DNA of 64,000 bases, taken from positions 22,816,001 through 22,880,000 of the forward strand of contig NC_047019.1 in NCBI RefSeq assembly GCF_902652985.1, given 5' to 3'. A program made the position numbers. Source of the stretch: Pecten maximus. Its lineage: Eukaryota. Positions 31,201 through 34,200 of the stretch are shown one piece after another; the stretch's first letter is position 1; every line of letters starts with the position of its first letter.

Positions 31201-34200
31201 ATAACTTAGTCTGATAATTTAAAACTCACCCACACATATCTTTTCTTAGCAAATTAATTTCTATTTCAACAGTATATTTTGACAAGTGAGTCTTTCGTGA
31301 AAAACTGCTATTGTAGAGGATATTGTCTAGCTGTTGTATATCTTTCACTCACTACTTACACACTATATATTTATAACTTGAAGAGTAACAACCTATGCCG
31401 TAAGTTTACGATACAAACTCTGATGTGGCGGGATGATGGACGAGAATTGTCACCAGTCGGATCTATTAACTTAAATGGAGAAAAAGATTTACACTCAGAT
31501 GTATTTCCTAACGTAGATTTCGGATTTAACCAAAGGAAGTTTATTGTTTCTACTCAGCCGGTAAGTTCATACATAAAGTCGCATGTCAGAGTGGTACAAG
31601 CACTTACATTTAAAAGTTTGTTTCGCGGAATTCGTAATTATAAAATTTACATTTCAATTTATCCAATTTCAATATATCGAAGTTTTAAAATCATGACGGG
31701 TCCATTAGAAATGAATAGATCAATATTTCAATATTATTTTATTGGAAACTCGTATTGCAATTCTTACAAAACTATATCTGGAAGTTAACTTATATAGATG
31801 TTGCTGTTTAGATTAAGATAGCTAAATAGTGGTGAGTGAATAATTGAAGCTTATGATGTACAATATGAATTATTACGGACCTACATTGTAGGTTTTTCCA
31901 TTTGAATACAAAACCAACAATTCATTCGAAGGTTTGTGCATTGACCTACTGGCACAGTTGGCAGTTGAATTAAACTTTACGTAAGTATTTTTTACTATCA
32001 GTCGTTACGCGTTTAAATCAAATCGAATACCCACATGGAAACTAATATTTCCATACATTTTATTACGAATCACATTACGAGTATTATATGATTATTATAT
32101 GTTATTCCACAGTTTTGAAGTGATTGTTTCCCCTGACGGAGATTTTGGAGTGATGTTGGATAACGGCAGCTGGACAGGACTCATAGGACAATTACAGAGA
32201 AAGGTATGGGACTTGCAGAGATACAGCATGTTAGACTCAAATCGGAATATGTTTTCAAACTTCAGCTACCGTAATCAACATACTCACTTTATGGAAGACG
32301 TTAAAACATTTCTAAGGTATACTCTGTGTTAACCTCAAAAACTGATAAAGCGAGAGTATAGAGAATCTAAATGCCGATTATATTGTATAAAAATGTATTT
32401 ATTTTTTTATGTATGACAATTTGACTTTTTGAAATTTTTTCAAGTATACATGTTTTTATGCATGCTCCACATAAAACTAAACCCAATGATTGGATTGAAT
32501 AGGCCATCTTATACAAGATGACAATTTATTATAGAAACATAACACTTAATATCATCAGAAATATTTTGAAAAGCTATGCTATGTCTGTCGTCGCAGAGTA
32601 CGTTATCGCAGTTTGGGATTAGAGGTCGGAGATCAGGGAAACACGTTGTTGTTTTGTTATTAGATGTTTTCAGAATTCGTTATTGAAGTAATAAGATATA
32701 TAAGTTACACATTATAGTAAAGCAGATTGGATCTTAAATAATACTTCGTTGTTGCCGAAGTTCTAAGTTATATATGCATAAAAATGTATTTGTATAGACA
32801 GCCAACACCGGTTACTTTTACTTTTGTTAATTTTTGCGATTTTGATATGGTTACGAAATTCGCAGGTACATTGTATATATATAATTTTGTTTTTGTGTCT
32901 AGGACGTTGACCTCGTTGCTGGTCCATTGTCAATAACTATCCAAAGGGAACATGTCATGGACTTCATTCATCCGTTTTTTCATGACCATTCTGTAGTTTT
33001 GATACAAAAACCTGATCCACAAGAAACAAAATGGCGGACTTTAATTGACCCTTATAGTGATACAGTCATCATCAGTATCGGGTTGTCCCTGCCCCTCGCA
33101 TCACTCGTGCTTGTAGTTCTGGAAAACATCAGCCCCGTCTACAGCAGAGAGGACAGGGCAGCCAACGAAAGTGACCTCAATTCCTTTTTGGGCTCATTCT
33201 GGTACCTGTTTGGAGCTCTTTTAACACAAGGTGATACACTGATTTTAACACAAGGTGATACACTGATTTTAACACAAGGTGATACACTGATTTTAACACA
33301 AGGTGATACACTGATTTTAACACAAGGTGTTACACTGATTTTAACACAAGGTGATACACTGATTTTAACACAAGGTGTTACACTGATTTTCAATATGTTT
33401 ATAATTCTATGATATCATTATATCATTTCTGTATTGTCGTTTTGAAGCAAACCGTTTTTATGGTAATGTTAACCAAACTTAAATCAGTCAATTCTTACAT
33501 TTTTTTTTTTTTTACATGTTAAGTCTTTTCATGTTGACATATGCCATTATATAACATTTGTTGCCGACTCATCCATCAATTTTCTTCAAAATAATGTATG
33601 TAAAGCAGTTCCGTAACCATGAATCAGTAATAAAACATATCATAACCGATCCTGATAAACTTTTATTGAAAAACTGCTGTTATTTCCTGAAAAGCGGTCA
33701 TTGATTAAATTCAATCGTAGACATAATTACGAATTATATCAACACTAAATACAAAATAATAACAACATACATGTGCTGTTTCAATGAGTACACTTTGTCC
33801 GAAATTGTATTTATCACGCTCTAGAACTTTATGAACTCTGACCTGATGTTTTTTCTCTGGGTACTCCGGCTTTCCTCCTCCTCCAAAACCTGGCACGTCC
33901 TTAAATGACCTTGGCTGTTAATAAGACGTTTAACAAAAAACAAACCAAACCAAACCTACACATTTGGTGGAAAAATCCATCTTGACAAATCATAAAACAC
34001 GAGTCTGAAAAATGGTTTAAAAAGACGGATTTCTAACTCGAAATCAATAAAGTTTGAACAAGTACAAATATAATAAGACAAAGTGTTTGGAATGCGTAAG
34101 CGTATCTTGATTTACCTGTACCTGTTCCCTAAACAGAACCAATGAAATTACAATCAGCAAACCTATAACCCCTTTCACTCCCCATGACCTTCATCAACCT

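What the first reader, a model, noticed from the sequence alone, without database searches (positions are those of the whole stretch)
33219..33390. Pore-loop splice donor of the ionotropic receptor is tandemly septuplicated in frame
Seen: the 24-bp unit comprises the last 12 exonic nt (the LTQG end) and the first 12 intronic nt. This yields seven near-identical AAG|GTG donors, each 24 nt apart, with no stop codons. Using donor n would insert (DTLILTQG)x(n-1) right after the TQG of the M2 pore loop, the position equivalent to the iGluR Q/R selectivity site (established). Inference: a VNTR that could create a ladder of channel isoforms or dilute the functional transcript, acting as a tuning knob or a hypomorphic allele.
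Basis: partly seen in the sequence, partly recalled or inferred. Interest (0 to 1): 0.72.

Follow-up and report, generated by a model that had tools for sequence, protein, structure and literature searches.

The report
Repeated splice donor in scallop receptor
A 24-base stretch covering the end of an exon and the start of the next intron is repeated seven times in a king scallop glutamate-receptor-like gene, which is the same layout as the known minisatellite in the human clotting factor VII gene, where only the first copy is used for splicing.

Summary
Window 33219-33390 is a 24-bp tandem array of 7.2 units, 97% alike, with no indels. It gives seven AAG|GT sites at exon ends 33230+24k. Five are AAG|GTGATA; copies 5 and 7 are AAG|GTGTTA.

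The window is king scallop (Pecten maximus), not human, and has no N. The exon encodes the end of S1, M1 and M2 of an iGluR-family subunit, XP_033741782.1.

Donor 1 joined to acceptor 35587 gives ..LLTQG|GKY.. All 7 named relatives share this junction, and it is contiguous in the Pfam channel profile. The junction lies two residues after the residue aligned with the Q/R/N site.

In 56 of 66 relatives the M2-M3 segment has no length change, and none carries a repeat ladder.

The layout is already described for human F7, IFI 6-16, CBS, LMNB2 and PDGF, where the first site, or the first three, are used (PMC1557585). The "tuning knob" idea has no support here. Donor usage, copy-number variation and the state in other scallops could not be checked. 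I rate it a new member of a known kind, of modest interest.

The parts
27381..37055 (+). Mapped part of the iGluR-family gene (XP_033741782.1, Pecten maximus). The annotated first exon lies further upstream and was not located.
   Evidence: tblastn of P0001-P0005 against the window; junction sequences; accession
32903..33230 (+). Exon encoding the end of S1, M1 and the M2 pore helix. It ends ..FWYLFGALLTQ plus the first base of a Gly codon (phase 1).
   Evidence: 100% identical to P0001 residues 296-405. Pfam Lig_chan-Glu_bd scores 23.5 bits and Lig_chan profile 6-57 scores 21.3 bits, both below the curated cut-offs for this piece alone. PDB phmmer hits GluN1 and GluA2.
33219..33390 (+). 24-bp minisatellite of 7.2 units. 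Unit 1 spans the exon-intron boundary.
   Evidence: TRF; unit listing; 7 of 7 window matches lie here, 0 expected
33228..33236 (+). Authentic donor AAG|GTGATA (exon end 33230), 7 of 9 matches to MAG|GTRAGT
   Evidence: It is the donor used by XP_033741782.1 and gives the junction shared by all named relatives.
33252..33380 (+). Six reiterated pseudo-donors (exon ends 33254, 33278, 33302, 33326, 33350, 33374). Four are identical to the authentic 9-mer; two (33326, 33374) have T at +4 and match 6 of 9.
33231..35586 (+). Intron (2356 nt counted from donor 1). The read-through frame stops at 33410-33412.
35587..35804 (+). Next exon: the rest of the pore loop, M3 and the start of S2 (..GKYTPYALSGRLFVGMWW..). 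The acceptor is tattgtag|GT.
   Evidence: Pfam Lig_chan profile 61-113, 47.4 bits against a cut-off of 30.8. 100% identical to P0001.
36070..36335 (+). S2 exon. It is open in the window but absent from the annotated P. maximus protein.
   Evidence: 90% identical to M. yessoensis P0003 residues 199-288; junctions
36785..37055 (+). Last exon (end of S2, M4, stop). It is open in the window but absent from the annotated P. maximus protein.
   Evidence: 69% identical to P0003 residues 284-377; frame open 36765-37052

Best explanation
This is a real and evolutionarily young minisatellite. A 24-bp segment was duplicated head to tail, probably by slippage or unequal exchange between the flanking TTTT runs, and then expanded to seven units. 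The segment is the last 12 nt of the M1-M2 exon plus the first 12 nt of the following intron, in a Pecten maximus iGluR-family gene. The same A-to-T change in units 5 and 7 shows at least one later two-unit step.

Unit 1 holds the authentic donor. Joined to acceptor 35587, it recreates the pore sequence that all relatives share. The other six copies sit in the intron as reiterated pseudo-donors.

By analogy with the described class (human F7 IVS7 and others), I infer that the most upstream site carries most or all splicing, perhaps with minor use of the next one or two. Each extra unit used would add 8 residues two positions after the Q/R/N-equivalent residue. The length of that segment is fixed across the family, so such products would more likely be defective subunits than tuned channels.

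Shown: the array, the seven sites, their strengths, the conserved junction and the length conservation. Inferred: the origin by slippage, which donor is used, and the effect of an insert.
For: - **Array and sites:**
- **Donor 1 is the conserved choice.** The Pfam Lig_chan profile ends at position 57 on the exon's last full codon and resumes at 61 on the third residue of the next exon. Positions 58-60 are then filled by the split Gly plus G and K. XP_033741782.1 reads ..ALLTQGGKYTPY... 7 of 7 named relatives have LLTQGG contiguous: P0001-P0005, P0155 and P0156.
- **No annotated isoform with an insert.** The 90% cluster of P0001 has 1 member. 0 of 5 hits of the read-through ORF carry the insert.
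- **Segment length is conserved.** The ortholog P0003 aligns without a gap from M2 through M3 to GluK2. 56 of 66 relatives covering the segment have no gap.
- **The donor is ordinary.** The array donor matches 7 of 9 consensus positions, within the range of 5-8 of 9 for the gene's other eight donors.
- **No RNA structure masks or exposes particular copies.** The z-score is +1.08, and 176 of 200 shuffles fold at least as well.
- **Precedent.** In PMC1557585 (abstract, Introduction and Discussion read), the F7 IVS7 37-bp minisatellite has 5-9 units, its first unit spans the boundary, and only the most upstream site is used, even though later sites are functional and some keep the frame open.
- **Assembly.** It was built from 65.9x PacBio reads with Arrow and Illumina polishing (PMC7191990, passages). 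A 172-bp array is well within single long reads, and the two variant units argue against a stutter artefact.
Against: - No transcript evidence of any kind was available, so donor use rests on one automatic gene model and on analogy with mammals.
- In 2 of the 5 genes listed in PMC1557585 (IFI 6-16, CBS), the two sites after the authentic one are also used.
- The same Discussion records that an earlier duplicated-site study gave the opposite result.
- The annotated scallop model is itself poor: it skips open upstream exons and ends by read-through. Its choice of donor is therefore weak evidence.
- Copy number in the assembly was not verified against reads.
- The ancestral single-copy state was not seen, because no DNA of other scallops could be reached.
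Confidence: 0.6

Rival explanations
1. Several of the seven donors are used at appreciable levels. The resulting mRNAs are in frame and so escape nonsense-mediated decay. They encode subunits with 8-48 extra residues in the pore loop, which dilute or poison the tetrameric channel, and repeat number sets the dose.
For: - All seven sites are in frame with no stop.
- Five have the same 9-mer, so intrinsic strength does not separate them.
- No predicted RNA structure hides the later ones.
- IFI 6-16 and CBS use the authentic site plus the next two (PMC1557585 Introduction).
- A 403-bp duplication of an exon-intron junction in FGG gave mostly aberrant transcripts in minigenes (PMC9052919, passages).
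Against: - No protein with the insert was found in any search: 0 of 5 and none in the 92-296 aa search. The P0001 cluster has 1 member.
- F7, LMNB2 and PDGF use only the authentic site, and in F7 even frame-preserving pseudo-sites stay silent.
- The M2-M3 segment does not vary in length in 56 of 66 relatives, so a graded 'tuning' function of inserts is unlikely. At best the result is loss of function.
Confidence: 0.2
2. The gene is decaying or barely expressed in P. maximus, so the array is an unconstrained lesion in a gene on its way to becoming a pseudogene.
For: - The only annotated protein (483 aa) skips open N-terminal exons that the Ylistrum model contains.
- That protein stops by read-through after 35804, so it lacks S2b and M4.
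- The gene span is unusually rich in tandem arrays, at 13.5%.
Against: - All exons mapped with relatives are open in the window, including the S2 and M4 exons.
- The channel-core exons are 90-94% identical in protein to the Ylistrum and Mizuhopecten orthologs.
- The Ylistrum model also ends by read-through after the same exon. That points to a shared annotation pattern or a shared short isoform rather than decay in Pecten alone.
Confidence: 0.1
3. Assembly artefact: the array or its copy number was created or distorted by long-read consensus and polishing.
For: - The assembly comes from noisy PacBio Sequel reads assembled with wtdbg2 and polished several times.
- The sequenced animal has 1.71% heterozygosity, so the two haplotypes may differ in unit number (PMC7191990, passages).
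Against: - The array is only 172 bp.
- It is perfectly periodic, with no indels.
- It contains two units with the same internal substitution. That pattern comes from real duplication history, not from the homopolymer-type errors of such reads.
- Similar arrays are frequent throughout the window.
Confidence: 0.07

Closest known systems
Human F7 (coagulation factor VII) IVS7 37-bp minisatellite (Borensztajn et al. 2006, PMC1557585; abstract, Introduction and Discussion read)
   Same: The first monomer spans the exon-intron boundary. The authentic donor is followed by several copies of itself. The unit count is similar (5-9 there, 7 here). The donor is sub-optimal.
   Different: - The unit is 37 bp with 4 exonic nt there, against 24 bp with 12 exonic nt here.
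- F7 pseudo-sites mostly shift the frame, whereas here every site is in frame with no stop.
- Use of the first site only, and copy-number polymorphism, are shown for F7 and untested here.
- The host is a mollusc, not a mammal.
Minisatellites giving multiple donors in human IFI 6-16 and CBS IVS13 (as summarised in the PMC1557585 Introduction; original papers not seen)
   Same: Donors are reiterated by a boundary-spanning minisatellite.
   Different: They have many more units (25 pseudo-sites; 15-20 repeats). Their unit lengths (12 nt and 31 bp) are my recollection, not from a call. They are not in a channel pore.
LMNB2 (100-bp unit) and PDGF (81-bp unit) intronic minisatellites (PMC1557585 Introduction)
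   Same: The array spans the boundary, and only the authentic donor is used.
   Different: The units are much longer.
Subtle tandem donors (GYNGYN, 2-12 nt apart; TassDB; PMC1779574, PMC2878309 and PMC2279118, seen as search listings with abstract starts only)
   Same: Neighbouring in-frame donors add or remove a few residues. Selection against them in structured protein regions is reported (abstract start of PMC2279118).
   Different: The spacing there is 2-12 nt with two sites. Here it is 24 nt with seven sites created by a minisatellite.
[quoted passage not shown]
   Same: A tandem duplication carries an exon end plus the donor.
   Different: It is a single 403-bp duplication that also creates cryptic acceptor use and frameshifts, and it is disease-causing. 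It is not a short-unit array.
Q/R site RNA editing in AMPA and kainate receptors (my own knowledge)
   Same: It acts at the tip of the M2 pore loop. The residue aligned with it here is the T of LLTQG.
   Different: Editing changes one residue and tunes permeation. An 8-48 residue insert two positions later has no known counterpart in the family.

Membership tests
Minisatellite whose first monomer spans an exon-intron boundary (reiterated 5' splice sites; F7 IVS7 class, PMC1557585) | Head-to-tail array whose first unit contains the exon end and the donor | tested here: met
   TRF 33219-33390, period 24, 7.2 copies. Unit 1 is 12 exonic plus 12 intronic nt.
Minisatellite whose first monomer spans an exon-intron boundary (F7 IVS7 class) | Authentic donor followed by pseudo-sites of the same sequence | tested here: met
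   4 of 6 downstream 9-mers are identical to AAG|GTGATA; 2 of 6 differ at +4.
Minisatellite whose first monomer spans an exon-intron boundary (F7 IVS7 class) | The most upstream site yields the normal, conserved product | tested here: met
   The Pfam profile is contiguous across donor 1 and acceptor 35587. 7 of 7 named relatives read LLTQGG.
Minisatellite whose first monomer spans an exon-intron boundary (F7 IVS7 class) | Downstream sites silent, or only the next one or two used, in transcripts | not testable with these tools
   No transcript or read data were available. The only evidence is one automatic gene model using donor 1.
Minisatellite whose first monomer spans an exon-intron boundary (F7 IVS7 class) | Unit number varies among individuals (VNTR) | not testable with these tools
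   Only one assembly copy was seen. No scallop DNA collection was available.
Ionotropic glutamate receptor family (iGluR) | Pfam Lig_chan (PF00060) and Lig_chan-Glu_bd (PF10613) domains | tested here: met
   Tested exon by exon, 3 of 8 pieces hit these families, and the exon 35589-35822 piece scores above the cut-off (47.4 against 30.8 bits). Precomputed Pfam for P0001 lists PF00497, PF00060 and PF10613.
Ionotropic glutamate receptor family (iGluR) | M1, re-entrant M2 and M3 with the spacing of solved receptors | tested here: met
   The ortholog P0003 aligns ungapped through M2-M3 to GluK2 at 168 bits. The exon alone aligns to GluN1 and GluA2.
Ionotropic glutamate receptor family (iGluR) | Complete subunit with the second half of the ligand-binding domain and M4 | tested here: inconclusive
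   The exons are open in the window and match P0003, but the annotated P. maximus protein ends before them.
Variant 'ionotropic receptors' (IRs, chemosensory branch of iGluRs) | Phylogenetic placement in the IR branch and loss of glutamate-binding residues | not tested
   No phylogeny was made. Sources name the relatives kainate-like, delta-like or uncharacterized. The class lists of the 36 P. maximus iGluRs are in supplements of PMC8437780, which are closed.
Subtle tandem donors (GYNGYN; TassDB) | Alternative donors 2-12 nt apart | tested here: not met
   The spacing is 24 nt.

The most novel reading that the evidence does not exclude
Several of the seven donors are really used. Because every product is in frame, scallops would make a graded mix of normal subunits and pore-insert subunits. 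The share of pore-insert subunits would depend on an individually variable repeat number. That would be a natural VNTR acting as a dose control, by dominant-negative poisoning of tetramers, on a glutamate-receptor-like channel. The species is noted for tolerating the glutamate analogue domoic acid.
Probability: 0.07. Interest if true: 0.65.

Novelty: new member of a known kind. Interest (0 to 1): 0.3.

Why it matters
If the first donor alone is used, this is a harmless intronic minisatellite. It then matters mainly as a caution for gene prediction at this locus. It would also be a non-mammalian test case for how the spliceosome chooses among identical 5' splice sites placed 24 nt apart.

It differs from the classic F7 case in one useful way. 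Every pseudo-site keeps the reading frame, so any use of them would be visible as stable mRNA, not removed by nonsense-mediated decay. The protein consequence falls in the best understood part of the channel.

If later donors are used, the allele would lower the function of one of the many scallop glutamate-receptor-like genes. That is of local interest for work on receptor expansion and toxin tolerance in P. maximus (PMC8437780).

Tried and rejected
- **Protein with the repeat insert.** The read-through ORF 32903-33409 was searched against longer proteins (5 hits, none with an insert) and against proteins of 92-296 aa (no hit). The 'shorter' search was not run.
- **RNA structure.** I tested whether structure could favour one donor. 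Folding 33180-33440 gave z = +1.08, so there is no such structure.
- **Dispersed repeat family.** The unit is absent elsewhere in the window.
- **Paralogues in the window.** I looked for one to compare intron starts. There is only one iGluR locus.
- **Inserts at the junction in relatives.** P0020 (+7 aa) and P0057 (+24 aa) have inserts exactly at this junction, but neither is repetitive. Both are unnamed predictions and look like gene-model slips at the same conserved intron position. They are not evidence that inserts are tolerated.
- **Intron start versus next exon start.** The first 10 nt of the intron match the first 14 nt of the next exon apart from 4 nt. 104 of 20000 random pairs share a 7-mer as well. 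The comparison was post hoc, so I draw nothing from it.
- **A coordinate error, corrected.** My first list of the gene's other donors used wrong exon ends and is void.
- **Other ORFs.** Ten ORFs of at least 95 aa outside the gene and the retroelement gave 0 of 10 Pfam hits.
- **Literature.** The search for competing or duplicated 5' splice sites gave one yeast paper of no direct use. The search for a minisatellite at a donor of a glutamate receptor or in a scallop gave 5 papers, none on the topic by title.
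Full report
**What is in the sequence**

Reading 32900-33700 shows a perfectly periodic 24-nt repeat. Tandem Repeats Finder gives 33219-33390, period 24, 7.2 copies, 97% matches, no indels and score 330. Units 1-4 and 6 are identical. Units 5 and 7 share one change, T for A, at the fourth base after the GT. The unit occurs 7 times in the window allowing 3 mismatches. All 7 are in the array, against 0 in 100 shuffles, so it is a local duplication and not a copy of a dispersed repeat. 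The array is bounded by TTTT on both sides. That fits a first duplication by slippage on this microhomology, which is an inference. The same variant in units 5 and 7 implies at least one later two-unit step, also an inference.

The window has no N and is 29-45% G+C per 2 kb.

**Where the window comes from, and the gene**

The window is not human. The read-through frame 32903-33409 finds, at 100% identity over the exon part, 'glutamate receptor ionotropic, kainate 3-like [Pecten maximus]' (P0001, XP_033741782.1). This protein lies on a 51.4-Mb contig. Orthologs are found in Ylistrum balloti (P0002, 94%) and Mizuhopecten yessoensis (P0003, 90%). More distant relatives are a P. maximus paralogue (P0004, 53%) and a Mytilus protein (P0005, 50%).

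tblastn of these five proteins places one gene on the + strand from at least 27381 to 37055. There is no second copy in the window.

The joined step was left out: I built, searched and folded no joined sequence of my own. Statements about the joined product rest on the annotated proteins that the tools returned.

Pfam was run on 8 pieces:
- 32903-33229: Lig_chan-Glu_bd scores 23.5 bits and Lig_chan profile positions 6-57 score 21.3 bits. Both are under the curated cut-offs for this piece alone.
- 35589-35822: Lig_chan profile positions 61-113 score 47.4 bits, against a cut-off of 30.8.
- 32120-32210: a weak Lig_chan-Glu_bd match.
- The other five pieces have no iGluR-family match.

**The splice sites**

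AAG|GT occurs at exon ends 33230, 33254, 33278, 33302, 33326, 33350 and 33374. Against the consensus MAG|GTRAGT (printed in PMC1557585), five sites match 7 of 9 positions and two match 6 of 9. The gene's other eight donors match 5-8 of 9, so this donor is ordinary.

The acceptor is ..tattgtag|GTGGGAAA.. with the exon starting at 35587. The exon ends in phase 1.

Donor 1 gives ..ALLTQ-G-GKYTPY.., exactly as in XP_033741782.1. The Pfam profile position runs on without a gap: position 57 falls on Q, positions 58-60 on the split G, G and K, and position 61 on Y.

All 7 named relatives have LLTQGG contiguous: P0001-P0005, P0155 and P0156.

Each later donor would add 8 residues. The added unit is DTLILTQG, or VTLILTQG for unit 5. 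The frame is open until the stop at 33410-33412.

Openness is weak evidence of design. 2 of 6 frames are open across the array, and a third of all periods are multiples of three.

**Position in the channel**

The exon alone aligns to GluN1 chains, with its T108 opposite chain residue 616. The ortholog P0003 aligns without a gap from M2 through M3 to GluK2 (best 168.2 bits). Its LLTQGG lies opposite the GluK2 letters 'lmqqgs' in the alignment printed. That GluN1 616 is the N site, and that the first Q of that GluK2 motif is the Q/R site, is my recollection. On that basis the T is the Q/R/N-equivalent and the junction lies two residues after it.

**Would an insert be tolerated?**

I searched P0003 against 1.84 billion representatives, which gave 6350 hits at E<=0.001, of which the best 150 were listed. 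From the listed rows I used only those scoring at least 185 bits. That is above the best vertebrate PDB score, so they are unlikely to be human. This gave P0006-P0073, to which I added four named proteins, making 72 in all.

Of the 72, 66 cover the M2-M3 segment, and 56 of the 66 have no gap in it. Six have a gap at or next to the junction:

| Protein | Gap at or next to the junction |
|---|---|
| P0020 | +7 aa |
| P0057 | +24 aa |
| P0062 | +2 aa |
| P0048 | +1 aa |
| P0034 | -2 aa |
| P0046 | -26 aa |

The two large inserts are not repetitive. Together with the 26-residue deletion, they look like gene-model slips at the same intron position. No relative carries a repeat ladder. An insert of 8-48 residues here therefore has no natural counterpart that I could find. 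I infer that it would damage the pore.

**Chance and context**

Tandem arrays are frequent in this genome region. The 36 TRF rows merge into 23 arrays covering 4508 of 64000 bases (7.0%), and 1307 of 9675 bases (13.5%) of the gene span. These include a 27-bp x 39 array in an upstream intron. With about twenty splice junctions in the gene, one junction inside an array is not unexpected. What is particular is that the array grew out of the junction itself.

**What is known**

The architecture is in print. Borensztajn et al. 2006 (PMC1557585; I read the abstract, Introduction and Discussion) describe the human F7 IVS7 37-bp minisatellite.
- Its first monomer spans the exon 7-IVS7 boundary.
- It has 5-9 units, giving identical pseudo-sites.
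- Only the most upstream site is used, although the later ones are functional when the earlier ones are inactivated.
- Frame-preserving pseudo-sites are not used either.

Their Introduction lists other genes. In IFI 6-16 (25 pseudo-sites) and CBS IVS13 (15-20 repeats), the authentic site and the next two are used. In LMNB2 and PDGF, only the authentic site is used. Their Discussion also notes older duplicated-site experiments with conflicting results.

A 403-bp junction duplication in FGG gave mainly aberrant transcripts in minigenes (PMC9052919, passages).

Short-range tandem donors (GYNGYN) form a separate class with 2-12 nt spacing (PMC1779574, PMC2878309; listings only).

One search for a minisatellite at a donor of a glutamate receptor gene or in a scallop returned 5 papers, none on the topic by title. 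I therefore found no report of this locus in the held library.

**Assembly**

The reference assembly was made from 65.9x PacBio reads (wtdbg2, Arrow) with Illumina polishing. The sequenced animal had 1.71% heterozygosity (PMC7191990, passages). A second assembly exists (PMC8437780, passages). That paper counts 36 iGluR genes in the species. Which class this gene belongs to is in its supplements, which are closed.

A 172-bp indel-free array with two internally marked units is unlikely to be an artefact. Its unit number, and the state of the other haplotype, are unverified.

**Verdict**

The most likely reading (0.6) is a young boundary-spanning minisatellite. Its first donor makes the conserved channel, and its six further donors are intronic pseudo-sites, silent or nearly so.

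The rivals:
- Real multi-donor use that yields defective in-frame subunits: 0.2.
- A decaying gene: 0.1. The annotated protein is partial, but all mapped exons are open and the core is 90-94% conserved.
- An assembly artefact: 0.07.

No predicted RNA structure distinguishes the copies (z = +1.08).

**What stayed unchecked**
- Transcript junction use.
- Repeat number in reads and in other individuals.
- The orthologous DNA of other scallops.
- Paper supplements.

**Virus-like stretch**

The virus-like stretch of the window lies 7 kb upstream of the gene. It is described under 'noticed in passing' only.

Noticed in passing
window 15983-21031 (+): This is the virus-like stretch, a tyrosine-recombinase retrotransposon-like element. 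One open 999-aa ORF (16179-19178) carries a zinc knuckle, a reverse transcriptase and a Dam-like methyltransferase match. One open 264-aa ORF (19448-20242) has a Phage_integrase match. Direct repeats lie at 15983-16153 = 20469-20639 (171 nt, 99%) and at 20399-20471 = 20959-21031 (73 nt, 99%), which is a split-direct-repeat layout. The type name (DIRS/PAT/Ngaro-like) is my recollection. It was described only, and no breaks were looked for.
   Followed up: partly
window 15050-15932: An 880-bp array of a 22-bp unit containing a palindrome, with many long inverted-repeat pairings. It lies directly upstream of the retroelement.
   Followed up: no
window 27381-37055: The annotated P. maximus protein XP_033741782.1 is partial. 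It skips open exons (within 28080-28616 and 30025-30330) that the Ylistrum model contains. It ends by read-through at 35805-35825, although the S2 and M4 exons (36070-36335, 36785-37052) are open and 90% and 69% identical to the Mizuhopecten protein. The Ylistrum model also ends by read-through after the same exon.
   Followed up: partly
window 33231-33240 and 35587-35600: The first 10 nt of the intron equal the first 14 nt of the next exon apart from 4 nt, and the two share a 7-mer. 104 of 20000 random pairs from the window do as well. The spliced junction AAG|GTGGGA would again match 7 of 9 donor positions, by my count from the letters. This was noticed post hoc and is unexplained.
   Followed up: partly
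window 28706-29763: A 27-bp x 39 minisatellite (90% matches) in an upstream intron of the same gene, starting about 90 nt after an exon-like open frame.
   Followed up: no
P0020 and P0057 (unnamed relatives): These predicted proteins have 7 and 24 extra, non-repetitive residues exactly at the TQG|G junction. P0046 lacks 26 residues from the same point. This suggests that the intron position is shared across the subfamily and that gene models often slip there.
   Followed up: partly
window 5646-6450; 2219-2254; 25171-25201; 36531-36555; 62530-62617: A 403-bp tandem duplication (93%), and several long G or C homopolymer runs (25-56 nt).
   Followed up: no
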